Positions 11,591 to 30,737 of a stretch of DNA of 34,817 bases are shown here, one piece after another. Below the pieces are notes generated by a model. That model ran no database searches. It had not been told where the DNA came from and worked only from the letters and a program-made list of their open reading frames with translations. Each line of letters opens with the position of its first letter. The stretch's first letter is position 1. Source of the DNA: Holophagae bacterium (GTDB taxonomy: Bacteria > Acidobacteriota > Thermoanaerobaculia > Multivoradales > Multivoraceae); NCBI GenBank assembly GCA_032128015.1, contig JAQBHE010000174.1, positions 1 to 34,817 of the forward strand, read 5' to 3'. The position numbers and the translations under genes were made by a program.

Positions 11591-11632
11591 CTGTTGCGAG
11601 CCGTCGGCCAGGAGCTCCGCCTCCTCGTCGGC
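11591..11632 (+). repeat. Repeat R1, copy A: a 42-nt fragment of a DUF5674 gene (antisense reads DEEAELLADGSQQ), 40/42 identical to 30408..30449.
   Basis: Direct comparison gives ctgttgCgagccgtcggccagGagctccgcctcctcgtcggc here and ctgttgGgagccgtcggccagAagctccgcctcctcgtcggc at 30408. Confidence 0.85.
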
Positions 11633-11676
11633 TCTGCTGCGGTTCGGTTCGCTGCGCGCCCCGGCCTTGCATGAAT

Positions 11677-11692
11677 GTGCAACATGTAGCAC
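11677..11692. promoter_or_regulatory. 16-bp near-palindrome 10 nt upstream of the antitoxin start. Candidate TA operator.
   Basis: The sequence GTGCaACATGTaGCAC pairs at 14 of 16 positions. An upstream TTGCAT (11667-11672) could be a -35 element. Confidence 0.3.
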
Positions 11693-11701
11693 ACTCGCTG
11701 C

Positions 11702-11938
11702 ATGCGCACCGCCGGTATCCGGGAGGTCCGTCAGAATCTCTCGGCTCTCCTCCGCGAGGTCAAGAAGGGTCGAGAGATCGTCATCACCGACCGCGGCGAG
11801 CCGGTCGCACGCCTGGCACCGCCGGCCTTCAGCGCGGCGCGGCCGTTCCCCGATCTCGCCGCCTTTCGCCGCACACTGCCGCGTCTCGAGCCGCCGCTCT
11901 CGGCGGCCGTGATGGAGGATCGTGCCGACCGCCTCTGA
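11702..11938 (+). CDS. Type II antitoxin, Phd/YefM (prevent-host-death) type, partner of VapC.
   Basis: The N-terminus MRTAGIREVRQNLSALLREVKKGREIVITDRGEPVARL is the typical Phd/YefM fold signature. It overlaps the downstream PIN gene by 17 nt. Confidence 0.85.
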   Translation: MRTAGIREVRQNLSALLREVKKGREIVITDRGEPVARLAPPAFSAARPFPDLAAFRRTLPRLEPPLSAAVMEDRADRL

Positions 11939-12401
11939 CGAGCGGGAGAGCGCGGCGCTTGTCGGTCCGCTCTACTGCGACGCCAGCGCCCTCGCCAAGC
12001 TGTTTCTCCCGGAGGAAGGAAGCGAGGATCTCAATAGCCGTATCGCTGGGCGCGACGATCTGCTGGTCTCGGATCTAGCGGTGACGGAGGTTGCGTCGGC
12101 GCTCGCCCGGCGCAGCCGTGAAGGCTCGTTACCCGCCGCCGCTTCCCGCCGCGTCCACCGCAGAATCCTCGCGACGTTGGCAGAGGGAGCCTTCCGCCGC
12201 CTCGACCTCCTCGGCTCGACTCACCGCGACGCCGAACGGCTGCTGCTCGTCAGCGAGCGCGTCGCGCTGCGTGCCGCCGATGCCCTCCATCTCGCCCTCG
12301 CTCTCGGCGTCGGCGCCGGCACGTTGCTCACCTACGACCGCACGATGGCGCGCATCGCGCAGGCCCAGGGCCTCGCTGTCTATCCGGAGGTCGCGACCTG
12401 A
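11922..12401 (+). CDS. vapC: PIN-domain ribonuclease toxin VapC.
   Basis: The conserved acidic residues are in the expected context: LYCDASALAKLF (first Asp), VTEVASAL (Glu), RAADALHLALAL (Asp) and LLTYDRTMA (C-terminal Asp). Confidence 0.85.
   Translation: MPTASDERESAALVGPLYCDASALAKLFLPEEGSEDLNSRIAGRDDLLVSDLAVTEVASALARRSREGSLPAAASRRVHRRILATLAEGAFRRLDLLGSTHRDAERLLLVSERVALRAADALHLALALGVGAGTLLTYDRTMARIAQAQGLAVYPEVAT
11990..12024 (+). repeat. Repeat R2, copy A: 35 nt inside the vapC 5' region, 34/35 identical to 30689..30723.
   Basis: The sequence cctcgccaagctgtttctcccggaggaAggaagcg here compares with ...ggaggaCggaagcg at 30689. Confidence 0.85.
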
Positions 12402-12410
12402 GCCTCGCTC

Positions 12411-12530
12411 CTAGGTCGCGCTACTCAGCGCGGTGCTCGGATCCTGACGGATTGCTCGCTGCGCCGGCACCAGCGTCGCCGGGATCAACGCCGTAGCAAA
12501 CAGGAGCACGACTGCATGAGCGAGATGGCC
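12411..12530 (-). pseudogene. 3'-terminal remnant of an FtsX-family (MacB/ADOP-like) ABC permease gene.
   Basis: The translation ...VVLLFATALIPATLVPAQRAIRQDPSTALSSAT* matches the characteristic last helix plus the PA.RA.R.DP..AL tail of FtsX permeases. Nothing permease-like lies upstream. Confidence 0.6.
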
Positions 12531-12569
12531 GACGGCTAGCCGAGGACGCCCTCGTGCCGGGATGGGGAT

Positions 12570-12599
12570 GGACCAAAATATCGGCCTATTATCTGGTCC
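12570..12599. promoter_or_regulatory. AT-rich inverted repeat containing a TATTAT -10-like box, just upstream of the Phd/YefM start. Candidate promoter/operator.
   Basis: The sequence is GGACCA-aaatatcggcctattatc-TGGTCC. It is followed by GGAGG (12602-12606) and the TTG start at 12616. Confidence 0.3.
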
Positions 12600-12615
12600 T
12601 TGGAGGAACTCTCCC

Positions 12616-12894
12616 TTGTCTACCGTTCCGCTGTCCCAGGCCAAGACTCATCTCGCCAGGCTGCTCGCCGAAGTCGAGGCAGTAGGCGAACCCGTCGTGA
12701 TCACCCGCTCCGGACGCCCGGCCGGCGTGTTGGTGTCCGTGAGCGAGTACGAGGGGTTGCTCGAGACGCTGGAGGTCCTGGCCGATCGCGAGCTGTCCCA
12801 GGCGATCGAGAGGGGCCTGGCGGAAGCGACAGCCGGCGAACTACTGGGTCACGACGAGGTCTGGGATGGCCTGGACACTTCAGTACCCGACTAG
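12616..12894 (+). CDS. Type II antitoxin, Phd/YefM family.
   Basis: The sequence reads (M)STVPLSQAKTHLARLLAEVEAVGEPVVITRSGRPAGVLVSVSEYEGLLETLE. The TTG start has GGAGG 9 nt upstream, and the tracked ORF's upstream 18 codons are probably not translated. Confidence 0.8.
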   Translation: MSTVPLSQAKTHLARLLAEVEAVGEPVVITRSGRPAGVLVSVSEYEGLLETLEVLADRELSQAIERGLAEATAGELLGHDEVWDGLDTSVPD

Positions 12895-13141
12895 CGCCGC
12901 GCGAGCCATTCGCAGGCTCGATCCCGCCATCCGCCGCCGCGTCCTGGCCGCCGTCGAGAAGCTGGCCGCGGAGCCCGAGCACGGGAAAGCTCTGCAGCTG
13001 ACGCTCAAGGGCCTTCGGTCGTGGCGGACCGGTGACTTCCGAATCGTCTATCGCGTGGTCGAGAGCCGGCTGGAGATTCTCGTTGTCGCCCTCGGCCATC
13101 GCCGCGAGGTGTACGAGAGGCTGCGCGAGCGCCTCGAGTAG
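12866..13141 (+). CDS. Type II toxin, RelE/ParE family.
   Basis: The 91-aa sequence ...AIRRLDPAIRRRVLAAVEKLAAEPEHGKAL...LRSWRTGDFRIVYRVVESRLEILVVALGHRREVY is a classic RelE/ParE pattern. It overlaps the antitoxin 3' end. Confidence 0.85.
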   Translation: MAWTLQYPTSAARAIRRLDPAIRRRVLAAVEKLAAEPEHGKALQLTLKGLRSWRTGDFRIVYRVVESRLEILVVALGHRREVYERLRERLE

Positions 13142-13503
13142 GTCGCGCCGCCCCGGTCCCTATCGGGATCGCTCCGCGGCGGGCGGGTACGGCCGCTTGC
13201 CAGGCATCGAACGAAGTCTTGCGGCTTCCGCTACGCTCCGGTCTACGATGCTCACTGGGCGCCCGAGCTACGCTCGGTGTCCCGAGGGCATCCACGACCC
13301 GCGGAGGCCAGCGGGCCGTTCGATCTTCTGCCGATGTGCTGCGACGAGGCTGGGACGAACTCGGCTCAGGGGTCTAATCGTGGTTGCAGCGGAGATCCCA
13401 TCGGACATGGCCTTCGCTCGCCACCGAAAACACTCTTCGATTCCGGAGTCGAACTCCGCCGCGCGGGCCCCGGCTTTCGGCGTTCGGGTGTCGAGACCTT
13501 GAG

Positions 13504-14565
13504 ATGGAAGCCCGGCAAGCCGTGACGACGTTGGGTGCGTGCCGATTGTCGACGCGGATCAGCGTTGTGATCCCCGCCCATGACGCCGCCGCGAGCTTGC
13601 CGGCGGTGCTACGGGCGCTCGTTCCCCAGGCTGGCGAGGCCGAGGTCGTGGTCGTCGATGCGGGTTCCGCCGATGCCACCGCCGCGGCCGCGGCCGCCGG
13701 CGGCGTATCGGTGCTGAGGCTCGATGGCCGCCGTGGACCCGCCGAGGCCAGAAACGCCGGGGCGCTCGCGAGTGCTGGCGACGTGGTGCTGTTCCTGGAT
13801 GCCGACTGCGTGCCTCACCCTGACCTCATAGAGCGAGTGCGGTCGTCGTTCGACGGCGACCGGGGGCTGGTCAGCCTGTGTGGCTCGTACGACGACGACC
13901 CCCTGCCCGGCTTCTTCACCCGCTACATGAACCTGCGCCACCACTACTTCCACCAAACCGCTCGAACCGACTGCGCCACGTTCTGGGCCGGCTGCGGCGC
14001 GGTTCGCAGAGAAGACTTCTTGGCGGTCGGCGGCTTCGACGAGCGACGCTACCCGCTGCCGATGATCGAGGATCTCGAGCTCGGGCTGCGTCTTAGGGCT
14101 TGCGGGTCCACTCGTCTGGATCCCGACTTGCGAGTGCGGCACCTGAAACGTTGGACGCTTCGCGGAGTGCTCGAAGCGGACATCGTGAGGCGGGCGCTGC
14201 CATGGACCGCGTTGATCTTCGAGACCGGCCACCTTTCGGACGACCTCAACCTGCGCTGGTCGCAGCGGCTCGCCGCGCTGTTAGCACCGCTGGTGCTCGC
14301 GAGTCCGCTGATCGTGACGTGGGCTCTCGTCTCCGCCAACCCCGTTGTGCTCGCGGTGCTGGTGCCGTTGCTCGCCCTCTCGTTGTGGTCTCAGGCCGGT
14401 CTCGTCAGACTGTTCGCGAGGGTCGGCGGCTGGCGACTGGCGCTGCCGGCGTTCGCGTTTCACCAGGTGCACCACCTCTGCTGCCTTGGAGCGTTCGGTT
14501 GGGGCGCGGGACGTCACCTCCTGCGCCGGGCGGTTCGGGGAACTCGCCGATGGGTGGCGCCGTGA
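13504..14565 (+). CDS. Family 2 glycosyltransferase with a C-terminal membrane-helix region.
   Basis: GT2 segments seen are ISVVIPAHDAAASL, VVVVDAGSADAT, ARNAGA, the DxD region LFLDADC, and GCGAVRREDFLAVGGFDE...IEDLELGLRL. The last ~120 aa contain several hydrophobic helices (LAALLAPLVLASPLIVTWALV..., VVLAVLVPLLALSLW...). I chose the ATG at 13504. Confidence 0.85.
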   Translation: MEARQAVTTLGACRLSTRISVVIPAHDAAASLPAVLRALVPQAGEAEVVVVDAGSADATAAAAAAGGVSVLRLDGRRGPAEARNAGALASAGDVVLFLDADCVPHPDLIERVRSSFDGDRGLVSLCGSYDDDPLPGFFTRYMNLRHHYFHQTARTDCATFWAGCGAVRREDFLAVGGFDERRYPLPMIEDLELGLRLRACGSTRLDPDLRVRHLKRWTLRGVLEADIVRRALPWTALIFETGHLSDDLNLRWSQRLAALLAPLVLASPLIVTWALVSANPVVLAVLVPLLALSLWSQAGLVRLFARVGGWRLALPAFAFHQVHHLCCLGAFGWGAGRHLLRRAVRGTRRWVAP

Positions 14566-14611
14566 CCGCGAATCTCGCGTCGCCCTCGTCGGTGCACCCG
14601 AGGTCCGCCGG

Positions 14612-15682
14612 TCATCGCGCTGCGGCCAAGAGTTGGACGCGGTTGGCGAAGTAGGTCGACCATTGCTCGCGTCGATTGCGCCGCCAGGCCTCCGGGCGCC
14701 GTTCGAGCGGCACGACCTCGTAGTCGTAGTCCCTCAATGCCTGGCCGAGGTGACGGTTGACGAGGGCGATCTCGTAGGGTGTGATCTCGGACCGCCAGTC
14801 CTCGAGCGGCGTGTGATCGATGCCCGAGAAGCGTCTTCCAGACGTGCTGTTGCCGGTCCACGGTTGGCCGAGAAGAGTCGGCTCGAGGCGGATGTCGGCG
14901 CCTGCGATCCCGAGAAAGGCGGCGAGCTCGGCGAGCACCGAGGTCGGATCGCTCACCAGGGTCTCGTAGCGAACGACTCGGTAGCATTCGCCGAGGTTCC
15001 GCCGGTTGACGGCGGCCAGTTCGTAGGACGATCGCAGCTCCCGGAGGGATGGGCGCAGCGAAGGATAGCGAGGCGTGCGGCCGACCAGGTGGTCGCCGGT
15101 CGCGACTCGTCTTAGCGCGCGCAGGGTCGCATAGGGGTTGCGGACGACGTGGAGGAAGCGGGCGTTCGGGAACCACTCCCGCAACAGCGGCGCGTACTCC
15201 TCTTGGTGCGGCGACTTCTCGACCCATCTCCGGGTCGCGAGGTCACCGCTCGCTTGACCGGTGGCGGCGAGCAGCGCCTCGAAGAAGCGCCGATAGATCT
15301 CGCGATGGGACCGCAGCGCCGGGGGGGCGAGGACGGTGTGTACGAAGACCTCGGGGTCCAGCGGCGAGAAGTCGTGAGGAGGGTCGACGCGGATCCGGCG
15401 TTCGAGCCGCGCCAGTCGCTCGGGGTCTCGCACCTGGAGGAAGAACAGCTGGTCGAGCATCGCCTCGGCGATCGCCGGCGGTTCGACGAGTCGGCCGAGC
15501 TTGCGGAACCCAAGCCGGCTCGGGTGATCCGAGAAGCGGAAGACGTTGAGCTCGGAGGGCATCACCAGGAGCTCGGGGTGGCCGTCGAGCAGGGCCTGGA
15601 GCAGGGTGGTCCCTGACTTGGCGCAACCGACGATGAACACCGGTCCTGTCGCGGGCGACGACCACGGGTCGCGGTCGGTCAT
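14612..15682 (-). CDS. Sulfotransferase family protein (PAPS-dependent type).
   Basis: A 5'-PSB-like loop VFIVGCAKSGTTLL sits near the N-terminus, with RNPYATL (3'-PB-like) further on. The start overlaps the upstream methyltransferase stop (ATGA at 15679-15682). Confidence 0.8.
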   Translation of the reverse strand: MTDRDPWSSPATGPVFIVGCAKSGTTLLQALLDGHPELLVMPSELNVFRFSDHPSRLGFRKLGRLVEPPAIAEAMLDQLFFLQVRDPERLARLERRIRVDPPHDFSPLDPEVFVHTVLAPPALRSHREIYRRFFEALLAATGQASGDLATRRWVEKSPHQEEYAPLLREWFPNARFLHVVRNPYATLRALRRVATGDHLVGRTPRYPSLRPSLRELRSSYELAAVNRRNLGECYRVVRYETLVSDPTSVLAELAAFLGIAGADIRLEPTLLGQPWTGNSTSGRRFSGIDHTPLEDWRSEITPYEIALVNRHLGQALRDYDYEVVPLERRPEAWRRNRREQWSTYFANRVQLLAAAR

Positions 15683-16527
15683 GACGACGATCCGGATGTC
15701 CTCTCGAACAGCGCCAGGAAATGGTCGCCCCAGCGGTTGACCGGTGCTGTGCCTGCGAGGCGGACCTCGAGGCGCGCCGCCAGGCGGAAGACCCGCGGCC
15801 AGCGGTCAACCCAGTGGGACAGGTAGCTCGGGGGCACAAGCACGCCGAGAGCGACGGTTCGACGAAGCCGGAATCCCGGCATCAAGTCGCTGGCCAGTCG
15901 GCGAGGGTTCGGGTAGTCGACGCGAAACGCGGGCCCCCCCGCGATCTCGGCGGTGACGCTCGAAGCGAGACGCCGGAAGCCTCGACGCAGGTCTCCGCGG
16001 ATCGCGTGAGAGCAGATCTCCCACGGGCACCAGCGGCCCATGACCACCACGGCCAGGGGAGCGCCCGCCGGGAGCCGGGACGCGAGCGCGCGCGCCAACG
16101 CCGGACGATCCGACAGACAGTTGAAGACGCCGAAGTTGGACAGGGCGCCGGTGATGTGTCCAACGGCGTTGGGCACGACGTTGTCGAGCGCGGTCTCGGC
16201 CTTGTCCAGATCCATTGGCAGGCAGCGAACAGACTCCGAGTGGCCGGCGCGCGCGAGTTTGCTTCGGGCTTGCTCGACCATCGCGACCGAGCGATCGACA
16301 GCAGTGACCTCGAGGCCCTTGCCGGCCAACCACAGCGCGTCCTCGCCGGTCCCGCAACCAAGGTCCAGGATGTGGCCGGGACGACAGAAGACGGGATCGA
16401 GCAGAGAGTGAACTCGAGCCCGGAGCCACCGGCCGAGAGCGGTGTGGCTGAACCGTGTGTCGTAGTCGGTTGCGGCGCGGTCGAATGGAGCTTCGCGCTC
16501 GTCGCTCGCGCTTGGGCTTGCGATCAG
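15679..16527 (-). CDS. Class I SAM-dependent methyltransferase with an uncertain 5' end and no canonical start upstream of motif I.
   Basis: Motif I ILDLGCGTGEDALWLAGKG and the preceding FDRAATDYDTRF...GRWLR region lie upstream of the first canonical start codon (TTG 16329) but in the same open frame. The only plausible initiator after the upstream gene's stop is the CTG at 16527, overlapping that stop as CTGA. Confidence 0.7.
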   Translation of the reverse strand: MIASPSASDEREAPFDRAATDYDTRFSHTALGRWLRARVHSLLDPVFCRPGHILDLGCGTGEDALWLAGKGLEVTAVDRSVAMVEQARSKLARAGHSESVRCLPMDLDKAETALDNVVPNAVGHITGALSNFGVFNCLSDRPALARALASRLPAGAPLAVVVMGRWCPWEICSHAIRGDLRRGFRRLASSVTAEIAGGPAFRVDYPNPRRLASDLMPGFRLRRTVALGVLVPPSYLSHWVDRWPRVFRLAARLEVRLAGTAPVNRWGDHFLALFERTSGSSS

Positions 16528-16994
16528 GGGCAGGTTGAAAAGGCCCGGGTATCTTGGATTGGCTGGAAGGGCGTGTTCAGCGGGTTCTGGTAGCCGCGCG
16601 GGACTCCGGTCTCGGTGTCGATGACCGACATCTCCACGCGGACGTCCGTCAGACCGCCTGCGAACACCCAGAAGGCGTTGTTGATCGAGCAGGCGTTGAG
16701 CACTTTGATCACCATTTCGACGTTGTTCTTGTCAAAGAACCAGAAGTATCCGGTGTCCCCGGTCAGCGCGACCGCCTGTCCTTGGCCGGCCCCGCCCTGG
16801 GAGGACCACAGCGTGCGAACCTGGAACCGACCGTCGCTCAGGCACAGCGTCGTCTTGTCCGCGACGCACTTGTCGTAGCTTTGAGCGAACAGCTGCCAGT
16901 GGAATGGCGCTGAGTCGAGGGACAGAAACGGCAGCGCCACGCTGCCCGCGAGGCACAGCAGCAGGGCGACGATAGAGCGGTAGGCCAAGCGCAT
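16524..16994 (-). CDS. Small secreted protein carrying a conserved Cys-containing domain of unknown function.
   Basis: It has a signal peptide MRLAYRSIVALLLCLAGSVALPFLS (alternative GTG start at 17060). The domain reads LCLSDGRFQVRTLW...TGYFWFFDKNNVEMVIKVLNACSINNAFWVFAGGLTDVRV...FQPIQDTRAFSTCP and is paralogous to 2482..2688. Confidence 0.75.
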   Translation of the reverse strand: MRLAYRSIVALLLCLAGSVALPFLSLDSAPFHWQLFAQSYDKCVADKTTLCLSDGRFQVRTLWSSQGGAGQGQAVALTGDTGYFWFFDKNNVEMVIKVLNACSINNAFWVFAGGLTDVRVEMSVIDTETGVPRGYQNPLNTPFQPIQDTRAFSTCP

Positions 16995-17064
16995 GGGGAG
17001 AGCTTCTTGGAGTGATCGGCCTCGAGGGCTGCTGGCGAGCCGTTTTGAGAACGCTAGCACAAAG

Positions 17065-18561
17065 TCAAGGTCCCTGGTCCGCGGGCCCCTGCCCCGCGGG
17101 CCGCTCGATAGAGGCTCGCCGCACCACGCGAAACAGAGGGCCGTCGGCGACGACCTCGAGCGCGGGCGTTCCGAGCGTCGGCGCGTCCAGGTAAACCGGT
17201 CGCCGCTCGACCTCGACCTCGAGAAAAGGCCAGAGATTCTCGTCCGAGATCAAGAACCGGTTGATCGTCCGCACGTCGGCGCGCTGGTGCTCGACGAGCT
17301 GCAAGTACTCGACGACCGGGGCCGTTGCCCAGCCCGCGCACAGCAGGGCGTTCGGCTCCATGAACCGGAGCACTCTCTCGCCACGGTGGCGCGCGCTCCA
17401 GTCGTTGGACAGATCGACCCCGCCGCCGCGCAGCCCTGCCCACACGACTCCAGCGAGTACCAGCCCACGCACCAACGCGAGAGCTGAGCCGACCCAGCGC
17501 TCGTTCGATTCCTCACGGATCCAATCGAACAGCGTTTGGTAGCCAACGCCTAACCACACCGCCCAGATCAAGTAGCTGGGCAGGAACATCGTGCTCTTGT
17601 CGATGACCCGGTAGGAGGCGAAGAACGCGGTGTGCGCGCCGAACATCAGCAGTAGCGCCCCGCCGAAATCGGGGCGCCGTCGCGTCAGTACGAACGCGCC
17701 GAGGAGCCCGGGGCCGATGCCGATCGCCGCGAACGCACGCCACAGCTCGACCAGGAACCTTCCCAGCTGAACGAGCAGACCGCTGGCGTCGTACCCCCCA
17801 AAGTCGCTCGCGAAGCGCTGCCCCGAAGCCAGCCACCACATTCCGGATAGGGTCGAAAGATCGATCCGCTGGAAGCGACCCCCGGCGTTGTACTCGCCGA
17901 CGTAGTCGAACGCCGGCGCGGAGTGCTGGAGCAGGGTTAGATAGAAGTAGAGGGCCAGGCCGCCGACCACCGGCAGAAGCGCCAGCGCCAGATGGCGCCA
18001 ACGCCGCGAGCGCCGCTGTCGAGCGAGTACCCAGAGCACTCCGGGCGCCCACAACACCGTTGCCAGATGATGGGCCAAACCCAACCCCAGGCAAGTGCCG
18101 ACCAGGGTGAGGTGGCGTTCCCGTGGGTGCTCTAGCCAGTGGAGCAGGGACCACATGAAGGCGCACTGGATGAGTGTTTGGGGCGTGTAGACCTCGGCGA
18201 TCAGGGACAGTGCCCAGAAGAAGTGGGAGACCGCGAGCAGTCCGACGGCGCCCGCCCGCGCCCACGGACCGACGCCGAGCTTGGCGAGCAGGCGCTCGAG
18301 CACGACCAGGGTCAGAGCGCCACAGAGCGCGCTCAGCAGGTTCATTCGATAACCGACGTCGCCGATCGGCAGTCTCGACCAAAAGCGTCCGACCAGCAGG
18401 TAGAGCGGATAGCCGGTCGAACGCACCAAGCCGCCGGTGTACGACGCGGTGGTGAGCTCGGCGCTGTCGAGGTTGTAGACGGTCGGCGCCAGAGTGGTGA
18501 TGTAGAGCGCGAGGGACAGGGCGAGCACCAAGAGCGGCGCGGTCAGGGTCGTTGGCCTCAC
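17065..18561 (-). CDS. DUF2723 family membrane protein (GT-C fold, PMT/TMEM260-like glycosyltransferase).
   Basis: The N-terminal signature is LYITTLAPTVYNLDSAELTTASYTGGLVRSTGYPLYLLVGRFWSRLP...YRMNLLSAL. About 10 or more hydrophobic helices follow, then a soluble C-terminal ~120 aa. Confidence 0.8.
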   Translation of the reverse strand: MRPTTLTAPLLVLALSLALYITTLAPTVYNLDSAELTTASYTGGLVRSTGYPLYLLVGRFWSRLPIGDVGYRMNLLSALCGALTLVVLERLLAKLGVGPWARAGAVGLLAVSHFFWALSLIAEVYTPQTLIQCAFMWSLLHWLEHPRERHLTLVGTCLGLGLAHHLATVLWAPGVLWVLARQRRSRRWRHLALALLPVVGGLALYFYLTLLQHSAPAFDYVGEYNAGGRFQRIDLSTLSGMWWLASGQRFASDFGGYDASGLLVQLGRFLVELWRAFAAIGIGPGLLGAFVLTRRRPDFGGALLLMFGAHTAFFASYRVIDKSTMFLPSYLIWAVWLGVGYQTLFDWIREESNERWVGSALALVRGLVLAGVVWAGLRGGGVDLSNDWSARHRGERVLRFMEPNALLCAGWATAPVVEYLQLVEHQRADVRTINRFLISDENLWPFLEVEVERRPVYLDAPTLGTPALEVVADGPLFRVVRRASIERPAGQGPADQGP

Positions 18562-18571
18562 CGAGTTGGCC

Positions 18572-20374: not shown

Positions 20375-20388
20375 CAGCGTGGCCCGGC

Positions 20389-24303: not shown

Positions 24304-25772
24304 ATCGACTCGCATCCGAACGCCCCGACCTGCTGCTCGCTCACGGCTACTGCCTGGTCGAGGATGAGCTCGAGCGGCGGATCATGAAGCCGTACCCACC
24401 CCTGGGATTGCTCTACCTCTCGTCGCACCTCAAGCGCGCCGGGATGTCGGTCGAGGTGTTCGATTCGACCTTCCGGTCGCGGTCGGAGTTCGAGCAGGTG
24501 CTCGAGGCAAGACGACCTCGGGTGGTCGGGCTCTCCGCCAACCTGATGACCAAGTTCAACGTCTTGAGAATGATCGAGCAGTGCCGTCGTGCCGGGATCC
24601 CGACCATCCTCGGTGGGCCGGAGCCCGCGCAATACGCCCAAGAGTACCTGGACTTCGGCGTCGATGTCGTGGTGGTGGGCGAGGGCGAGTTGACGCTCGA
24701 AGAGATCGTGCCACGGCTGAGCGCGGGCGGCGCCGCGAGTGTCGCCGGGACTCCCGGAGTGATCGTCGCCGATGGCCTGGGCGGGCTGGTGAACGGTGGT
24801 CCCCGGAAGCTGATCGGCGATCTCTCCGGCCAGCCCTGGCCCGACCGCGAGGCGATCGATTGCGACCGCTACCTCGAGGTGTGGAAGCGCCACCATGGCA
24901 AGGGCTCCCTGTCGCTGATCACCGCGCGTGGGTGTCCGTACACCTGTGCCTGGTGCAGCCATTCGGTCTACGGACGAAGCTACCGGCGACGGGCGGCGTC
25001 GGATGTCGCCGACGAGATCCAGTGGCTCCTGGGTCGCTACGCTCCCGATCAGCTGTGGTTCGCCGACGATGTCTTCACCTTGGATCGTCGTTTCATCCTC
25101 GAGCTTGCTGGCGAGCTCGAACGACGCGCGATCCGCATTCCCTTCGAATGCATCAGTCGCGCCGACCGGATCGATCCGGAGGTGGTCGAGGCGCTGGTCG
25201 GGCTCGGGTGCTGGCGACTGTGGATCGGGTCCGAGAGCGGGTCCCAGCGCATCCTCGACCGAATGCAGCGGCGGACTGCTGTCGAAGACGTTCGAGCGAA
25301 GGCCCGCCTGCTCCAGGCCGCCGGAATCGAGGTCGGGATGTTCATCATGCTCGGCTACGACGGCGAGGAGGCCTCCGATATCGCGGCGACCATCGAGCAT
25401 CTCAAAGCCTGCGCGCCCGATGTCTATCTGACGACCGTTGCCTATCCGATCAAAGGCACTTCCTACTACGACGAGGTTGCCGGCGCGATCCGCACCGATC
25501 GCCCGTGGGCGCAGCGTACCGATCGCGATCTGCGGATCGAGGGTCGCCATTCGGCGCGCTACTACCACAACGCGGTGCGTTGGATCGAGGGCAGCGTCGC
25601 CCTGCACCGGGCGAGTCAGAGCGGGCGGCTCCCTTCCATCGAGCGGCTCCAATCCTGGCTGAAGACGATGCACGGGCGGATCGGGATGAGGCTCGCGCGC
25701 GCAGAAACCGAGGTCGGGAAGGCGAGTGGCCGGGGCTGGCGGCCGGCGGACCGAACAGGTGTGGGATGGTGA
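24300..25772 (+). CDS. B12-binding-domain radical SAM enzyme (class B), copy 2, clearly paralogous to copy 1.
   Basis: Family segments are YPPLGLLYLSSHLKRAGMSVEVFD and ILGGPEP. The motif RGCPYTCAWC has Cys codons at 24933, 24945 and 24954. It also has GCWRLWIGSESGSQRILDRMQR. The ATG overlaps the copy 1 stop (ATGA at 24300-24303). Confidence 0.9.
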   Translation: MNRLASERPDLLLAHGYCLVEDELERRIMKPYPPLGLLYLSSHLKRAGMSVEVFDSTFRSRSEFEQVLEARRPRVVGLSANLMTKFNVLRMIEQCRRAGIPTILGGPEPAQYAQEYLDFGVDVVVVGEGELTLEEIVPRLSAGGAASVAGTPGVIVADGLGGLVNGGPRKLIGDLSGQPWPDREAIDCDRYLEVWKRHHGKGSLSLITARGCPYTCAWCSHSVYGRSYRRRAASDVADEIQWLLGRYAPDQLWFADDVFTLDRRFILELAGELERRAIRIPFECISRADRIDPEVVEALVGLGCWRLWIGSESGSQRILDRMQRRTAVEDVRAKARLLQAAGIEVGMFIMLGYDGEEASDIAATIEHLKACAPDVYLTTVAYPIKGTSYYDEVAGAIRTDRPWAQRTDRDLRIEGRHSARYYHNAVRWIEGSVALHRASQSGRLPSIERLQSWLKTMHGRIGMRLARAETEVGKASGRGWRPADRTGVGW

Positions 25773-25793
25773 GCGATGGGATGGTGAGCCGAT
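25763..25793 (+). repeat. Tandem duplication (15 + 16 nt) at the junction of radical SAM copies 2 and 3.
   Basis: GGGATGGTGAGCGAT is followed by GGGATGGTGAGCCGAT. The first copy holds the copy 2 stop (25770-25772) and the second ends at the copy 3 ATG (25792). Confidence 0.6.
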
Positions 25794-27291
25794 GAGCGCA
25801 AGAACGTCGCCGCCGAACGTGATCCTGTTCAATCCACGATCTTCGGCCAATGCAAAACCGATCCTGCCGATGTCTTTGCTCGCGCTCGGTGCTGTGCTCG
25901 AGAATCGGGTCGAGTACCGTATCGTCGACGGCAACCTCGAGCAGGATCCCGGCTCGGCGCTCGACGCCCTCATCCGGAGTCTCGATGGCGAGGTGCTCCT
26001 CGGTGTGACCGTGATGCCCGGGCCTCAGCTCGAGCAGGCGACCGCGATCTGTCGTGAGTTGAAGCGGCGCCACCCCAGGTTGATCGTGATCTGGGGCGGC
26101 TACTTTCCTACCGAGCACTGGCAGGCTTGCCTGCGGTCCGGCTTCGTCGACTTCGTCCTGCGCGGACACGCCGAGTACTCGTTCGCCGAGCTGATCGACA
26201 GGATTCGAGACGGCGCCGATCCGCGGGGTGTCGCCGGTCTGGCGATGGTCGTGGCCGGTAGCGAGCCAGTGAGCGAGCCGATGGCGCCAGTACCTGCCCC
26301 CGAGGAGCTTCCCCAGTGGAATCTCGCGAAGGTGCCGATGGAAAGCTACCTGCGCCGGACCTTCCTCGGCGCACGCACGATCGGCTACAACTCTTCCTAT
26401 GGTTGTCCCTTTCGTTGCAACTTCTGCGCGGTGGTCAACCTGGTCGACGGCCGATGGCTGGCCCAGTCGCCGGGGCGGGTGGCGGCAGCCGTCGAGCGGT
26501 ATCGGTCTGGTTGGGGCGTCGACGCGGTCGAGATGGTCGACAACAACTTCTTCGTCCACGAGCGGCGGACCCGCGAATTCGCCGAACGCATCCGCGACCT
26601 CGGGGTCTCATGGTGGGGCGAGGCGCGGGTCGACACCTTGCTGCAGTACTCGGATCGCACCTGGATGACGATGAAGGAATCGGGACTGCGCATGGTGTTT
26701 CTCGGCGCCGAGTCAGGGTCCGCAGAAACCCTCGAGCGGATGGACAAGGGGGGTCGCCTGACGCCGGAGATGACAATCGAGCTCGCCCAGCGCATGCGAA
26801 GCCTCGGCGTCGTGCCCGAGTTCTCGTTCGTCTTGGGCTCGCCGCCCGATCCGGTCGGCGACGTCGAGTGCACGCTGCGCTTCGTTCGCCGGCTCAAGAA
26901 GGTCAACCCGGATGCCGAGATCATCTTGTACTTGTATACTCCGGTGCCGCTCTCCGGCGATCTACTGGACCGGGCCGTGGAGGCGGGGTTTCGCTTCCCC
27001 GAGACGCTCGACGAATGGGTGTCGCCGCGCTGGTCCGACTTCTCGCAACGCCGTAGCGACGGACTGCCCTGGATCCCTGCGGAGCTGCGGCGCAAAATCC
27101 GCGACTTCGAAAGCGTGCTCGCGGCCTACTATCCGACGACCACCGACGCCCGTCTTCGTGGCGTCTGGCGCGCGGCACTGCGGCTGCTTTCAGGTTGGAG
27201 GTACCGGCACGAGGTCTACGGGTTCCCGCTGGAGCTCAGATTCCTGCAGCGGTTGATGCGCTACCAGCGCCCGGAGGTCTCGGGGTTCTAG
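25792..27291 (+). CDS. B12-binding-domain radical SAM enzyme (class B), copy 3, more divergent.
   Basis: Family segments are ILPMSLLALGAVLE...YRIVDGN and IVIWGGYFPT. The motif YGCPFRCNFC has Cys codons at 26404, 26416 and 26425. It also has VFLGAESGSAETLERMDKG. Confidence 0.85.
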   Translation: MSARTSPPNVILFNPRSSANAKPILPMSLLALGAVLENRVEYRIVDGNLEQDPGSALDALIRSLDGEVLLGVTVMPGPQLEQATAICRELKRRHPRLIVIWGGYFPTEHWQACLRSGFVDFVLRGHAEYSFAELIDRIRDGADPRGVAGLAMVVAGSEPVSEPMAPVPAPEELPQWNLAKVPMESYLRRTFLGARTIGYNSSYGCPFRCNFCAVVNLVDGRWLAQSPGRVAAAVERYRSGWGVDAVEMVDNNFFVHERRTREFAERIRDLGVSWWGEARVDTLLQYSDRTWMTMKESGLRMVFLGAESGSAETLERMDKGGRLTPEMTIELAQRMRSLGVVPEFSFVLGSPPDPVGDVECTLRFVRRLKKVNPDAEIILYLYTPVPLSGDLLDRAVEAGFRFPETLDEWVSPRWSDFSQRRSDGLPWIPAELRRKIRDFESVLAAYYPTTTDARLRGVWRAALRLLSGWRYRHEVYGFPLELRFLQRLMRYQRPEVSGF

Positions 27292-27350
27292 ACGAGGGTT
27301 GGGACCCAGCAGGCTCGGGGGTCGGGTTGAGGCTTCCTGTCATCGAAGCG

Positions 27351-28046
27351 CTACCTCTCGGCGCTCAGCCGGTAGATCGTGATGAACTCGCTCACCAGGT
27401 TGGCGCGGTGGACAGCCGCGGTCTCGAGCCCGGCATCTCGGAAGCTCCTGAGGAACCCCGTTTCGTCTCCGTCCGAGGACAGCAGCACGAAGCCTCGGCC
27501 GTGGTCGACGAGGTGCTGTTGGAGTCCGGCCGCGAAGCGGTCCCGGATATCTGTGGCGAAGAAGGCCCGCTCGGTCATGGTGGTCGGCTCGCGACGGAAG
27601 TAAGGCGGGCTGAACAGGACGACCTCGAACCGCTCGCCCGACACTGGCTCATAGAGGTCGCCGTGGCGTACGTCCATCCGGTGCTCGACGCGGTTGAGCA
27701 GCGCGTTGACGCGCGCGCAACGAACCGCGTCCTTGCTGATGTCGGTGGCGACCACCCGCTGGCAGACCGTGGCGAGGCGGGTCGCGAGGATCCCTGAACC
27801 GGTGCCGATCTCGAGCGCCGTGGCGCCCGCGGCCTCGAGTGCCCGGAGCTCCCCGTTTGGATGCAGCTCTCGCTCAATCCAGCGGAGAAAAACGGGTGTC
27901 GTTCGATAGAGCGCTGGGTGAAAGACGCCGGGTAGGACCACCAGCTTGAGTCCGCCGAAGTTCTCGAGCACCACACGCTTTGCGCGTTGCCGCTGGAACA
28001 GCACGTAGCGCGCGGTCAGCAACGTGCGCCAGAGCAGTCGCTTCAA
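27351..28046 (-). CDS. Class I SAM methyltransferase, HemK/PrmC-like small-domain type.
   Basis: Motif I is ALEIGTGSGILATRLA, followed by VVATDIS. Motif IV is the variant FSPPY (an NPPY-type motif). PGVFHP lies upstream. Confidence 0.8.
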   Translation of the reverse strand: MKRLLWRTLLTARYVLFQRQRAKRVVLENFGGLKLVVLPGVFHPALYRTTPVFLRWIERELHPNGELRALEAAGATALEIGTGSGILATRLATVCQRVVATDISKDAVRCARVNALLNRVEHRMDVRHGDLYEPVSGERFEVVLFSPPYFRREPTTMTERAFFATDIRDRFAAGLQQHLVDHGRGFVLLSSDGDETGFLRSFRDAGLETAAVHRANLVSEFITIYRLSAER

Positions 28047-28081
28047 GGTCTCTCCGGCCGCGCTCGTGGCGACGGTGTATC

Positions 28082-28264
28082 TAGCCCGGACTATTCATGA
28101 ACGACCTACTACGGCCGCGCATTCATCCCACCTGGCGGGCGTCCTCGGCCCTCGGCTCCTGCGACGTACTGCGAGTACGACTCGGAGCACTCGAGGCCTG
28201 CGGGTGCCCGCCACCTGGGCGACTGCGCGCCCTCGCTGCGTTCCTTCATGAATAATCCGGGCTA
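28082..28264. repeat. 183-bp imperfect palindromic intergenic element with 20-bp AT-rich terminal inverted repeats.
   Basis: The left terminus TAGCCCGGACTATTCATGAA (28082-28101) pairs with the right terminus TTCATGAATAATCCGGGCTA (28245-28264) at 19 of 20 positions. There are nested inner arms (cccacctggcgggc / gcccgccacctggg, 12 of 14 paired). A central hairpin CGTACT-gcg-AGTACG (28165-28179) is centred on the same axis near 28172. Confidence 0.7.
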
Positions 28265-29785
28265 CTAGTACGAGGTGGTGACGCCGCTGGCGACGCGCTC
28301 TGGAGTGAGGCGGTCGAGATGAGGCCGGCGTGGTTGGTTCCCGCCGCCAACGTCGGGGTCGGTGGTCGCAGTCTCGTGGTGCTGAAGGTCGACGTTGACC
28401 GACCAGATGTCGTAGTTGGCGCCGGCGAGGTTGCGGGCCGCATAGATGCCGGTCAGCATCGAATGGTCTTGGTTGTTGTAGCGGTGCTGGCCGTTGCGAC
28501 CCATCAGTTGAAGGTTGGAAAAGCTCCGCAAGTAGGGCAACATTCGAGAAAGCACGTCGCGGTAGCGGTGGTCGTAGACCGGATAGGCCTTGGGTACTCG
28601 CACCACCACCGAATCGATCACCTCACTCGCGTCCACGAGTCCGAGCGCCTGGAGCTCGCGGGCGCCGAGCGCGGCCAGTTCTTGGTCGGTCTTGCCGAGC
28701 AGCTCGTCGTGCTCGTGAACGAAGTATTCGAGCCCGAGCGAAGTTCGCGAGGGGTCGGGAACCATCGCCTCGCTCCAGTTCTTGAAGTTCTGGATGCGGC
28801 CGACCCTGACCTCCGGGGAGTGCACGTAGAGCCAGTTGTCGGGAAAGACTCGCGGCCGATCGACGATCAGCACGACCGCTAGGAAATCACGATAACGCAG
28901 CTGGCGGGCGGCGGCGCGCACCGCGCCCGGGGGTGCTGGGTCCAGGCAACCGACGAGGGCCTGAAGCGGCATCGAACAAAGCACCTGGTCGACGTCGAGC
29001 GTGGAGAGCTCGCCGCCGCGATCGACGGTCAGCCGGGTGACTCTGCGGCCGCTGTGGTGGTCGCTGTGGTGGAGCTTGAGCACTCGGGTCCCGGTCCAAG
29101 TCGGCACCCCGGAGCGCTCGAGACGGGCTCGGCAGCTCTCCCACATCATGCCGGGTCCAAGACGGGGATAGAGGAAGCGGTCGATCAGCGTTGTCACGAT
29201 CGCTCCGTCGCCTACGGCTCCGGTTCGCGTGAAGGCGTTTCTCAAGGCGGCCGCGAGATCGAGGTTCTTGATTCGCTGCGCTGCCCAGTCGGAGCTGATC
29301 TCGTGGCAGGGCATGCCCCAAACCTTCTCGGTATAGGACTTGAAGAAGATCTCGTAGAGCCGACGGCCGAAGCGGTTGATCACCCAGGATTCGAAGTCGG
29401 GCTCTTCGGGCAGAGGAGCGAGGCGGGCGCGCAGGTAGCTCAACAGGATGCGGCAGGCTTCGAACGGTCCGAGCCCGAGGACGGCGTTGAGCGGCCGCAG
29501 GGGATAGTCGAAGTAACGTCCCCGATAGTAGATCCGAGACAGCCGTTGGATCTCGAGCAGATCGGCGCCAAGCAACTCCCTCCAGATGTCCTCGACGAGC
29601 GGCGCTTTGGTGAAGAACCGGTGGCCACCGATGTCGAACCGGTAGCCTTTGTACTCGACGGTCCGCGCGAGCCCGCCGACGGTCGAGTCCTGTTCGAGGA
29701 CAATCGCTGGGCGCCCCAGCCTGGAGAGCTCGAGCGCTGCGGTCAGTCCGGCAGGCCCCGCGCCGATGATGAAGGTCTTGTCCAC
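28265..29785 (-). CDS. FAD/NAD(P)-binding oxidoreductase (COG1232-like, UDP-galactopyranose mutase / amine-oxidase-like fold).
   Basis: The N-terminal dinucleotide motif is FIIGAGPAGLTAALEL...VLEQDSTVGGLAR. Further segments are YRFDIGGHRFF, FFKSYTEKVWG and DWAAQRIK. Confidence 0.85.
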   Translation of the reverse strand: MDKTFIIGAGPAGLTAALELSRLGRPAIVLEQDSTVGGLARTVEYKGYRFDIGGHRFFTKAPLVEDIWRELLGADLLEIQRLSRIYYRGRYFDYPLRPLNAVLGLGPFEACRILLSYLRARLAPLPEEPDFESWVINRFGRRLYEIFFKSYTEKVWGMPCHEISSDWAAQRIKNLDLAAALRNAFTRTGAVGDGAIVTTLIDRFLYPRLGPGMMWESCRARLERSGVPTWTGTRVLKLHHSDHHSGRRVTRLTVDRGGELSTLDVDQVLCSMPLQALVGCLDPAPPGAVRAAARQLRYRDFLAVVLIVDRPRVFPDNWLYVHSPEVRVGRIQNFKNWSEAMVPDPSRTSLGLEYFVHEHDELLGKTDQELAALGARELQALGLVDASEVIDSVVVRVPKAYPVYDHRYRDVLSRMLPYLRSFSNLQLMGRNGQHRYNNQDHSMLTGIYAARNLAGANYDIWSVNVDLQHHETATTDPDVGGGNQPRRPHLDRLTPERVASGVTTSY

Positions 29786-29898
29786 GGCCCGGGTCTTCGT
29801 ATGCGTGAGTTCCCGAGCTGCGCGACCGCAGGGATCCTATCGTGGCCGGAGCGAGATCGATCGGCGGGCGACCGCGCGGTGGCCGCCGAAATGATCCG

Positions 29899-30240
29899 TC
29901 ATCGCGCTTTCGCCGCGGCCACTGCGAAAGCGTCAAAGTATCGTTGCAGGGTGACTTCGGTCGAGCCGAACTGGTTCGGGCCCACGAGAAAATCCAGCAA
30001 CACTTCCCGCACTCTGCAGATCTCGCGCAGGCGAGCGACCGACGCACGATGGCGCGGGTCGTCGAGAGTGAGGTCGATCAGTTCCAGGGCGCGCACCATG
30101 GCCCCCTCGGCAATCCGGGGATTGCGGGATCGCCACTTCAGCGTCCGGCTGACCTCACTGCCGACGTTTCCGAGCTGCTCGGCCAGCGTGAACGCATGCC
30201 ACCGGTCGGGGGTCATCCCGCTGTGCTTCATATCGGTCAT
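29899..30240 (-). CDS. Conserved-looking hypothetical protein (113 aa), translationally coupled to the DUF5674 gene.
   Basis: An ATG at 30240 overlaps the upstream stop (ATGA at 30237-30240). The sequence is helical-looking (...WHAFTLAEQLGNVGSEVSRTLKW...MVRALELIDLTLDD...). No family was confidently recognised. Confidence 0.55.
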   Translation of the reverse strand: MTDMKHSGMTPDRWHAFTLAEQLGNVGSEVSRTLKWRSRNPRIAEGAMVRALELIDLTLDDPRHRASVARLREICRVREVLLDFLVGPNQFGSTEVTLQRYFDAFAVAAAKAR

Positions 30241-30584
30241 CGGCGCACCAACTCGCGGACCAGGGTGGCGAGTCTCTGCTGTGTCGCCGGATCGTCGACG
30301 CTGCGGGACCGGTTGCCGAAGGAAGGGCGGAGGTTGATCAGGGCATCGAATTCGAGCCACTCGCTCTCCGCCAAGTCTGGATAGAGGTTGACCCCCCACA
30401 GGTTCCGCTGTTGGGAGCCGTCGGCCAGAAGCTCCGCCTCCTCGTCGGCGTGCAAATCCGCGTCGACGATCATGATCCGTCGCTCCAGATCGATCACGGC
30501 TTTGATCAGATCCCCGAAGCGCTCGACTGCCAGGTGGCGCAGCTCGTCGAGGGCAATCGGATCTTGCTCGGTCACGGCTCTCAC
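30237..30584 (-). CDS. DUF5674 family protein.
   Basis: It matches the family pattern FGDLIKAVIDLERRIMIVDADLHADEEAELLADGSQQRNLWGVNLYPD...LEFDALINLRPSFGNRSRSVDDP. A GTG start at 30584 (or 30575) is preferred over the tracked 30671. Confidence 0.75.
   Translation of the reverse strand: MRAVTEQDPIALDELRHLAVERFGDLIKAVIDLERRIMIVDADLHADEEAELLADGSQQRNLWGVNLYPDLAESEWLEFDALINLRPSFGNRSRSVDDPATQQRLATLVRELVRR
30408..30449 (+). repeat. Repeat R1, copy B, inside the intact DUF5674 gene.
   Basis: It is 40/42 identical to 11591..11632 in the same orientation. Confidence 0.85.
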
Positions 30585-30688
30585 GAGCCCAAGACCGTAG
30601 CATGACGATTGACGTGGAACGGCTGCGCGGACGGATCGGCTTCGTAGATCCGTCGGACCATTAGCGCCCACAGGCGACGGAACCTGCG

Positions 30689-30737
30689 CCTCGCCAAGCT
30701 GTTTCTCCCGGAGGACGGAAGCGCCTCGAAGTCGTGA
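30689..30737 (+). pseudogene. VapC-like N-terminal remnant (includes repeat R2 copy B, 30689..30723).
   Basis: It translates as ...LRLAKLFLPEDGSASKS*, against the intact VapC ASALAKLFLPEEGSEDL. It is 34/35 nt identical to 11990..12024. A possible C-terminal PIN remnant (ASVGASEPIKRDRGLAGRRAKPL, about 30765-30833) follows in the same frame. Confidence 0.5.

What the first reader, a model, noticed from the sequence alone, without database searches (positions are those of the whole stretch)
11591..30723. Two near-identical short direct repeats bracket the cluster: reciprocal remnants of a DUF5674-vapBC locus about 18.7 kb apart
What the sequence shows:
- R1 (42 nt, 40/42 identical) occurs at 11591-11632 and 30408-30449.
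- R2 (35 nt, 34/35 identical) occurs at 11990-12024 and 30689-30723.
- All four copies lie on the same strand and in the same order.
- At the right locus R1 is part of an intact DUF5674 gene, and R2 is a dead VapC N-terminus (LAKLFLPEDGS then a stop).
- At the left locus R2 is part of an intact vapC, and R1 is an orphan DUF5674 fragment in intergenic DNA.
- So the same ancestral arrangement (DUF5674 gene next to vapBC) exists twice with complementary decay, and everything between the copies is the TA islet plus the biosynthetic cluster.

Interpretation:
- This is the signature expected from a segmental duplication, or from recombination-mediated insertion of an island.
- It provides substrates for excision or deletion of the whole cluster.
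- No integrase is present in the window.
Basis: seen in the sequence. Interest (0 to 1): 0.6.

Follow-up and report, generated by a model that had tools for sequence, protein, structure and literature searches.

The report
Short relics of two mobile gene cassettes
Two ~45-50-base repeats 18.8 kb apart are real, but they are leftover scraps of two small mobile toxin-antitoxin-type gene cassettes, an ordinary by-product of cassette turnover, and nothing shows that they are the borders of an inserted island.

Summary
R1 is 44 nt, 42/44 identical (11589-11632 and 30406-30449). R2 is 35 nt, 34/35 identical, or 51 nt at 88% with gaps (11977-12024 and 30674-30723). Both are direct, collinear and absent from shuffled sequence. 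Independent assemblies confirm all junctions.

R1R lies inside an intact DUF5674 gene (30237-30584, minus strand). R2L lies inside an intact PIN/VapC gene. R1L and R2R are non-coding scraps.

New points:
- The Phd-PIN pair and the DUF5674-plus-partner pair are each self-contained cassettes of about 0.7 kb with sharp edges, found in unrelated neighbourhoods in other genomes.
- Each scrap lies 33-46 nt outside the promoter edge of the intact cassette of the other type.
- The DUF5674 cassette has at least three copies in this assembly, and R1L matches the copy on contig C603 (44/44) better than it matches R1R.
- A DUF5674-vapBC adjacency is seen in none of 154 loci elsewhere.
- The interval has the genome's own composition, and the window has no integrase and no tRNA.
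- The longest perfect runs are only 20 and 27 nt.

Most likely a head-to-head cassette pair existed twice and each redundant member was deleted. Whether the 17.5 kb between came in as a unit cannot be decided. Interest is low.

The parts
10904..11536 (-). Left flank gene (DUF922 family), divergent from the antitoxin gene
   Evidence: PF06037 at 30.2 bits, cutoff 27. The exact protein is on independent contigs L173 and L174.
11584..11632 (-). R1L: orphan DUF5674 fragment (codons ~46-60, ADEEAELLADGSQQR) in intergenic DNA, ending 33 nt before the vapBC cassette edge
   Evidence: 42/44 identical to R1R; 44/44 (48/49 with one gap) to contig C603. Flanks are unrelated to DUF5674. Logan contigs break inside it.
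11666..11701 (+). Left edge of the vapBC cassette: promoter-like TTGCAT-17 nt-CACACT with the inverted repeat TGTGC..GCACA, and the ATG a few bases after the -10
   Evidence: Homology among the window, L017, L019 and L088 begins exactly here. The consensus scan found no canonical promoter, so the promoter assignment is an inference.
11702..11938 (+). Phd/YefM-type antitoxin gene (the 'vapB')
   Evidence: PF02604 at 44.3 bits. TIGR01552. 81-91% identical homologs lie upstream of the VapC homologs in L017 and L019.
11922..12401 (+). PIN-domain toxin gene (vapC), intact; it contains R2L and overlaps the antitoxin stop
   Evidence: PF01850 at 48.8 bits. 72-76% identical homologs occur in Thermoanaerobaculia. 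Cassette homology ends at its stop codon.
11977..12024 (+). R2L: VapC codons ~19-34, with the first conserved Asp of the PIN domain
29899..30240 (-). 113-aa partner gene of DUF5674; its start overlaps the DUF5674 stop (ATGA)
   Evidence: A homolog lies directly downstream of DUF5674 in 66 of 68 loci from many phyla. No Pfam, NCBIfam or PADLOC family. Paralogs are on C603 and C509.
30237..30584 (-). Intact DUF5674 gene (115 aa, GTG start at 30584); contains R1R
   Evidence: PF18924 at 104 bits. The start was set by alignment with the C603 paralog.
30406..30449 (-). R1R: DUF5674 codons 46-60, the most conserved 44-nt window of the gene
   Evidence: 42/44 against C603, the maximum over 304 windows; 18 windows reach it.
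30585..30627 (-). Upstream 43 nt that belong to the DUF5674 cassette (presumed promoter)
   Evidence: Homology with C603 runs over 29912-30627 and stops here.
30674..30723 (+). R2R: orphan vapC fragment in intergenic DNA, starting 46 nt beyond the DUF5674 cassette edge
   Evidence: 34/35 core; 51 nt at 88% to vapC of the left locus, against 79-83% to VapC genes of other genomes. No gene is called here in L015, L016 or L175.
30870..31382 (+). Right flank gene (DSPc-like phosphatase)
   Evidence: PF00782, weak. 54-67% identical orthologs occur in 7 relatives, never near DUF922.

Best explanation
R1L (11584-11632) and R2R (30674-30723) are dead, non-coding relics of about 50 nt each, one from a DUF5674 gene and one from a vapC gene.

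Each relic lies just outside the promoter-side edge of an intact two-gene cassette of the other kind: 33 nt from the Phd-PIN (vapBC) cassette at 11666-12401, and 46 nt from the DUF5674-plus-partner cassette at 29899-30627.

Both cassette types are autonomous promoter-to-stop units. They turn up in unrelated neighbourhoods in other genomes, and the DUF5674 type has at least three copies in this genome.

The most likely history is that a head-to-head DUF5674/vapBC pair existed at two places in this lineage. At each place the redundant member was then removed by deletions, leaving a scrap. This is the ordinary erosion seen for chromosomal toxin-antitoxin modules.

The relics are by-products. They are not attachment sites, and nothing shows that the 17.5 kb between them arrived or can leave as a unit.

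Shown: the repeats, their coding origin, the cassette edges, the extra copies, the uniform composition. Inferred: the ancestral composite, its duplication and the deletions.
For: - The repeats are real and non-random. Junctions are confirmed in independent assemblies.
- Gene identities rest on Pfam.
- vapBC cassette edges: homology with L017, L019 and L088 starts at 11651-11666 and ends at 12402-12410, in different neighbourhoods.
- DUF5674 cassette: homology between C174 and C603 covers only 29912-30627. The partner gene follows DUF5674 in 66 of 68 loci across phyla.
- Extra copies sit on C603 and C509. Assembly graphs break at the shared runs.
- R2R is closer to this genome's own vapC (88-97%) than to VapC genes elsewhere (79-83%), so its origin is within the genome.
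- Low-copy short patches are not rare here (46-49). Two pairs joining the same two sites still imply shared history.
- TA clustering in high-turnover spots, frequent erosion to 'DNA remnants', and near-identical TA copies at different positions without mobility genes are documented in PMC13617665.
Against: - The proposed composite is seen in none of 68 DUF5674 loci or 86 VapC-relative loci elsewhere. It would be private to this lineage.
- R1L equals the C603 copy (44/44) but differs from R1R at two synonymous sites. With three sequences this cannot be rooted, but it is not what a recent left-right duplication predicts.
- Each relic needs two break points.
- Both relics are about the same size, and each coincides with the most conserved stretch of its parent gene. 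For R1 only 18 of 304 windows are as conserved. Random whittling does not predict this.
- The toxin-antitoxin nature of the DUF5674 cassette is untested.
Confidence: 0.55

Rival explanations
1. Island reading (the first reader's, made more specific). The interval 11.6-30.7 kb entered as one piece of about 18.8 kb. One route is homologous (Campbell-type) integration of a circle that carried a DUF5674/vapBC composite into a resident composite. The other is illegitimate integration of a terminally redundant copy of such a circle, broken inside the composite. The outer edges of R1L and R2R would then be the island ends, and later internal deletions removed the redundant halves.
For: - The geometry is a circular permutation. 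The left locus keeps the part from r1 to the end of vapC, and the right locus keeps the part from the partner gene to r2. The ends of the interval abut the 3' ends of vapC and of the partner gene.
- The repeats are direct and collinear with similar spacing, 18,817 and 18,699 nt.
- The rSAM/glycosyltransferase cluster is patchy among relatives, found in 3 of 40.
- The terminal-redundancy form needs only two later deletions.
Against: - Composition inside equals outside equals the genome.
- There is no integrase, transposase or tRNA.
- R1L matches C603 better than R1R.
- No gene of the interval is linked to either cassette elsewhere.
- The flank genes DUF922 and DSPc are never adjacent in 40 relatives; they are 1.5 Mb apart in a complete genome.
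- No empty-site variant appears among assemblies carrying the exact flank proteins.
- These are mostly absences of support, not refutations.
Confidence: 0.25
2. Independent relics. The two loci are unrelated turnover spots. A DUF5674 cassette of the C603 lineage once sat beside the left vapBC, and separately a vapBC copy once sat beside the right DUF5674 cassette. The reciprocity is a coincidence of a small pool of cassettes within one genome.
For: - R1L is identical to C603, not to R1R.
- Cassettes copy themselves around this genome.
- Several short gene-derived patches exist genome-wide.
- TA systems can be acquired repeatedly at the same spot (PMC13617665).
Against: - It requires the same rare adjacency, seen in 0 of 154 loci elsewhere, to arise twice, in the same relative orientation, within 19 kb.
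- The left vapC has no close paralog in the genome apart from R2R; the next best is 31% identical.
Confidence: 0.12
3. Functional short elements. The scraps are retained because they act, for example as antisense or decoy sequences that let the two cassettes regulate each other.
For: - The placement is reciprocal: each scrap lies in the divergent promoter region next to the other cassette.
- Both scraps derive from the most conserved part of the parent gene.
Against: - R1L lies upstream of the conserved vapBC promoter, so it is not on the vapBC transcript.
- R2R lies beyond the 43 nt that the DUF5674 cassette carries upstream.
- On the strands of the neighbouring DUF922 and DSPc genes both scraps would be sense, not antisense.
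- There is no Rfam hit and no promoter or terminator signal.
- No comparative data exist.
Confidence: 0.03
4. Assembly artefact. The scraps were spliced in through shared k-mers in a fragmented metagenome assembly.
For: The genome is a 714-contig MAG. Contigs of other assemblies break at these very repeats.
Against: - Both flanks of each scrap are joined to it in independent assemblies: L012 across R1L; L174 and L014 from either side; L015 and L016 across R1R and R2R.
- A single mis-join would leave homology on one flank, and none is present.
Confidence: 0.02

Closest known systems
Eroded chromosomal type II toxin-antitoxin modules ('DNA remnants' of toxin or antitoxin genes in high-turnover spots; Belot et al., Mol Biol Evol 2026, PMC13617665)
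   Same: A short non-ORF fragment of a toxin gene (R2R) lies in intergenic DNA beside other small addiction-type cassettes. The left locus holds two TA pairs back to back. Cassettes are copied to new positions without recognisable mobility genes.
   Different: Here two different cassette types each left a scrap beside the other's intact copy. One of the two (DUF5674 plus partner) is not an established TA family. No syntenic relatives are available to show the intact ancestral state.
Genomic islands integrated by site-specific recombination and bounded by att direct repeats
   Same: Direct repeats of a few tens of bases bracket an accessory biosynthetic cluster.
   Different: There is no integrase, no tRNA target and no compositional signature. 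The 'repeats' are internal pieces of protein-coding genes, two different ones per side, and are imperfect.
Campbell-type (homologous) integration of a circular DNA, which leaves the shared segment duplicated on both sides
   Same: It predicts direct duplication of a shared segment (here the composite) around the inserted DNA without any integrase, followed by decay of the redundant copies.
   Different: Only 44-51 nt of each duplicate remains, so the duplication itself is not observable. R1L is closer to a third copy elsewhere.
VapBC modules with a Phd/YefM-type antitoxin and a PIN toxin
   Same: The left cassette has a PF02604 antitoxin overlapping a PF01850 PIN toxin. The pair and its promoter/operator are conserved in other Thermoanaerobaculia.
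   Different: Nothing unusual. Toxicity is not tested.

Membership tests
att-bounded, integrase-mediated genomic island | Integrase or recombinase gene at one end | tested here: not met
   Pfam scans of all likely genes of the window found none.
att-bounded, integrase-mediated genomic island | Insertion at a tRNA/tmRNA gene or other conserved target | tested here: not met
   ARAGORN found 0 genes and Rfam gave 0 matches.
att-bounded, integrase-mediated genomic island | Composition different from the host genome | tested here: not met
   GC is 0.671 inside and 0.669 outside. The tetranucleotide distance of the interval to the genome is 0.0066; 41% of background pieces lie further away.
att-bounded, integrase-mediated genomic island | Presence/absence polymorphism with an empty site | tested here: inconclusive
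   No variant appears among contigs carrying the exact flank proteins. Relatives are all from other genera with no synteny.
Segmental duplication | Extended collinear homology between the two copies | tested here: not met
   A sensitive self-BLAST finds only the 44-nt and 51-nt patches; the flanks are unrelated.
Eroded TA module / toxin-gene DNA remnant | Non-ORF DNA fragment homologous to a toxin gene | tested here: met
   R2R is 51 nt at 88% to vapC (core 34/35), with a stop 4 codons after the match. No gene is called there.
Eroded TA module / toxin-gene DNA remnant | Intact module at the syntenic position in relatives | not testable with these tools
   No same-genus genome is held, and synteny is lost at family level.
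Type II TA, VapBC (Phd/YefM antitoxin + PIN toxin) | PIN-domain toxin preceded by an overlapping small antitoxin gene, conserved as a pair | tested here: met
   PF01850 at 48.8 bits and PF02604 at 44.3 bits. The genes overlap at 11922-11938. The pair is conserved in L017, L018 and L019 and in most VapC-relative loci.
Type II TA, VapBC (Phd/YefM antitoxin + PIN toxin) | Toxin arrests growth and the antitoxin neutralises it | not testable with these tools
   This needs a kill-rescue assay.
Pfam DUF5674 (PF18924) | Match above the gathering score | tested here: met
   104 bits against a cutoff of 27 for 30237-30671. R1L alone is too short to score.

The most novel reading that the evidence does not exclude
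The 18.8-kb unit between the repeats was captured without any integrase. A circular or terminally redundant DNA carrying a head-to-head DUF5674/vapBC composite integrated with its break inside the composite. The outer edges of R1L and R2R would then be the true island ends. Later erosion of the duplicated composite to runs of less than 30 nt 'locked' the biosynthetic cluster in place by removing the homology needed for pop-out.
Probability: 0.2. Interest if true: 0.45.

Novelty: new member of a known kind. Interest (0 to 1): 0.2.

Why it matters
In itself it matters little. Scraps of toxin-antitoxin genes in high-turnover spots are a documented outcome of cassette gain and loss.

Three things are useful.
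- Neighbouring findings on this contig should not treat 11.6-30.7 kb as a demonstrated island.
- The work delimits two minimal mobile units to the base: a vapBC cassette running from its -35 box to its stop codon, and a DUF5674-plus-partner cassette with only 43 nt upstream. That helps anyone asking how such integrase-less cassettes move.
- It shows that the uncharacterised DUF5674 cassette multiplies and erodes within one genome like an addiction module.

If the island reading were true, it would be a worked example of homology- or redundancy-driven capture of a biosynthetic cluster, followed by stabilisation through decay of the repeats.

Tried and rejected
- Empty-site search: none found. 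All 40 held relatives belong to other genera. The rSAM cluster, M24 peptidase, DUF922 and DSPc orthologs show no shared neighbourhood. The sister MAG is not held. Assemblies with the exact flank proteins show only the same arrangement.
- Ancestral composite elsewhere: 0 of 68 DUF5674 loci and 0 of 86 VapC-relative loci. No vapBC trace lies next to the C603 or C509 copies.
- Dispersed-repeat family: rejected for R2, which has only the two copies. Partly true for R1, which has three copies, two of them inside genes. The third 'copy' of R2 at 2882-2916 (71%) lies in a hydrolase gene and is chance.
- Characteristic patch length that might hint at a mechanism: rejected. Low-copy patches range smoothly from 30 to 150 nt.
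- Known RNA, tRNA, promoter or terminator at the patches: none.
- Antisense cross-regulation: the cassette edges put both scraps outside the cassette transcripts.
- DGR- or CRISPR-type origin: considered from the sequence only. The mismatches are not adenine-specific and there are no flanking repeats.
- Literature: 'DUF5674' occurs in no paper of the held library.

Full report
**Observation.** The window is the whole of contig C174 of a 714-contig, 4.9-Mb metagenome-assembled genome. Source names given to homologs suggest Acidobacteriota, class Thermoanaerobaculia.

- R1 is 44 nt, 42/44 identical (11589-11632 and 30406-30449).
- R2 is 35 nt, 34/35 identical (11990-12024 and 30689-30723). With gaps it extends to 51 nt at 88% (11977-12024 vs 30674-30723).
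- Both pairs are direct and in the same order.
- Neither motif gave a second match within 3 mismatches in any of 100 shuffles of the window.
- After one gene-family match, these are the strongest non-self matches in a sensitive self-BLAST of the window.

**Not an artefact.**

- A contig of another MAG (L012, GCA_032124835.1) covers 10890-18783 at 99.95% identity.
- Logan contigs of individual runs cover 8394-11622 (L174), 11589-16297 (L013), 11603-13613 (L014) and 30052-32447 (L015, L016) at 99.7-100%.
- Those contigs stop exactly at or inside R1L, or at 30052. At 30052 the window shares a 35-nt exact run with contig C509. That is the behaviour of a k=31 graph branching at sequence shared with a paralog, so the other copies coexist in those samples.

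**Anatomy.**

- Left locus: DUF922 gene (10904-11536, minus); a 165-nt spacer containing R1L; a Phd/YefM-type antitoxin gene (11702-11938); a PIN/VapC gene (11922-12401) containing R2L; then a Phd-ParE pair (12562-13141).
- Right locus: an amine oxidase gene (28265-29785, minus); a 113-aa gene (29899-30240, minus) whose ATG overlaps the stop of DUF5674; DUF5674 (30237-30584, minus; PF18924 at 104 bits) containing R1R; a spacer of about 285 nt containing R2R; and a DSPc-like phosphatase gene (30870-31382).
- Between the loci: glycosyltransferases, a sulfotransferase, a PMT-like transferase, three B12-binding radical SAM genes, a methyltransferase and the oxidase.
- No integrase, transposase, tRNA or Rfam family is present in the window.
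- R1L encodes ADEEAELLADGSQQR on the minus strand (DUF5674 codons 46-60). R2R encodes LAKLFLPEDGS followed by ASKS and a stop (VapC codons ~19-34).

**Two autonomous cassettes.**

- The closest VapC homologs (72-76% identical) sit in quite different neighbourhoods in other Thermoanaerobaculia.
- DNA homology with them begins at 11651-11666 and ends at 12402-12410.
- A four-genome alignment shows the left edge is sharp. It starts at a TTGCAT-17 nt-CACA(A/C)T element with an inverted repeat, a few bases before the ATG. The right edge is the vapC stop codon.
- DUF5674 has more than 2,000 homologs with E-values of 1e-10 or better. The 120 best listed are 68-81% identical, apart from this genome's own two copies.
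- In 66 of 68 loci fetched from many phyla, a homolog of the 113-aa gene follows DUF5674 directly.
- Within this genome a second copy on contig C603 is 86.6% identical over window 29912-30627 only. A third partner-gene copy is cut by the end of contig C509.
- The C603 and C174 copies differ mostly at synonymous sites: 23 synonymous against 13 non-synonymous codons in DUF5674. Both are therefore probably functional.
- Earlier notes of this scan describe the same pair as a widespread TA-like cassette. I used them only as leads and re-derived the pairing myself.

**Where the scraps sit.**

- R1L ends 33 nt before the promoter edge of the vapBC cassette.
- R2R starts 46 nt beyond the 43-nt upstream stretch that belongs to the DUF5674 cassette.
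- Both flanks of each scrap are unrelated to the parent gene. These are sharply bounded fragments, not long decayed pseudogenes.
- R1L is identical to the C603 copy (44/44; 48/49 with one gap). It differs from R1R at two synonymous sites.
- R2R is closest to this genome's own vapC (88-97%, against 79-83% for VapC genes elsewhere). That vapC has no other close paralog; the next best is 31% identical.

**Shared history or coincidence?** The assembly holds about 46-49 low-copy short patches of 30-150 nt with no preferred length. Isolated gene-derived patches are therefore unremarkable here. But two collinear pairs joining the same two ~400-nt sites, each scrap belonging to the cassette type that is intact at the other site, cannot be coincidence. 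The adjacency of these two cassette types occurs in none of 154 loci elsewhere. Two independent origins are therefore unlikely. A head-to-head DUF5674/vapBC composite that existed in two copies is the economical reading. The complementary loss fits what is documented for chromosomal TA modules: clustering in high-turnover spots, frequent erosion to DNA remnants, and copies at new positions without mobility genes (PMC13617665).

**Is the interval an island?** Nothing positive supports this.

- GC content (0.671 inside, 0.669 outside) and tetranucleotide usage of 12.4-29.9 kb match the flanks and the genome. 41% of random 17.5-kb pieces lie further from the genome mean.
- No gene of the interval co-occurs with either cassette elsewhere.
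- The rSAM genes are patchy among 40 relatives, found in 3 genomes. Those relatives are all from other genera, and no synteny survives around any flank gene.
- DUF922 and DSPc orthologs are 1.5 Mb apart in the one complete genome that has both.
- No empty-site variant was found among public assemblies carrying the exact flank proteins.
- As recombination substrates the repeats are weak. Their longest perfect runs are 20 and 27 nt.

**What remains open.** The geometry is that of a circular permutation. The left locus keeps the composite from r1 to the end of vapC, and the right locus keeps it from the partner gene to r2. The two ends of the interval abut the 3' ends of vapC and of the partner gene. 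A circular or terminally redundant 18.8-kb DNA that integrated with its break inside the composite would produce this with only two later deletions. I give that about 0.2-0.25. Two things remain unexplained: both scraps are about 45-50 nt long, and each coincides with the most conserved stretch of its gene. For R1, 18 of 304 windows are as conserved.

**Verdict.** The repeats are relics of cassette turnover, a new instance of a known kind of event. They are not shown to be island borders or active recombination sites. Interest is low.

Noticed in passing
window 29899-30627; contigs C603 and C509 of the same genome; loci L020-L087: DUF5674 plus a 113-aa partner (ATGA-coupled, no family in Pfam, NCBIfam or PADLOC) is a self-contained cassette of about 0.72 kb. 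It has at least 3 copies in this MAG, and the gene pairing is kept in 66 of 68 loci across many phyla. 'DUF5674' appears in no paper of the held library.
   Followed up: partly
window 11666-12402; L017, L019, L088: The Phd-PIN cassette is a promoter-to-stop unit with base-sharp edges. A TTGCAT-17 nt-CACA(A/C)T element with the inverted repeat TGTGC..GCACA is conserved in four genomes. The ATG follows a few bases after the -10, which suggests a leaderless mRNA.
   Followed up: partly
window 2482-2570 and 16636-16724 (inverted); gene 16524-17060 (-): An 85-89-nt DNA core (80% identical between the two window copies) belongs to a multi-copy small-protein gene family (178 aa, no family hit). It has more than 25 copies in the MAG, often as tandem pairs 460-570 nt apart. 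Homologs lie next to the M24 peptidase in G003 and G002 and near DSPc in G009.
   Followed up: partly
window 28082-28264: An imperfect palindrome of about 183 nt (187 aligned, 70.6% self-complementary) fills the spacer between the methyltransferase and amine oxidase genes.
   Followed up: no
window 12402-12560 (minus strand): An open frame ending ...LIPATLVPAQRAIRQDPSTALSSAT* lies between the two left TA modules. Pfam gives no hit on the 57-aa piece, so this is unconfirmed. If real, the left locus holds a second gene relic.
   Followed up: partly
window 34068-34817 (-): An AbiEii-type nucleotidyltransferase toxin gene (type IV TA; weak Pfam hit) runs off the right end of the contig. It is a further addiction-type gene near the right locus.
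   Followed up: no
window 22744-27291: Three tandem B12-binding radical SAM genes follow a GT4 glycosyltransferase gene. Orthologs at 53-61% identity occur in only 3 of 40 relatives (G012, G035, G040), in other gene orders.
   Followed up: partly
L013, L014, L015, L016, L174 (Logan contigs of ERR5010711, ERR5010721, ERR5010722): Contig ends of independent assemblies fall exactly at R1L (11589, 11603, 11622) and at 30052, where a 35-nt run is shared with C509. Contig break points can therefore flag paralog-shared patches.
   Followed up: yes
G001:C68:1434-1877 (locus L002): The nearest VapC homolog among held relatives (52% identical) carries one in-frame TGA, so it is possibly a pseudogenised toxin.
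   Followed up: no
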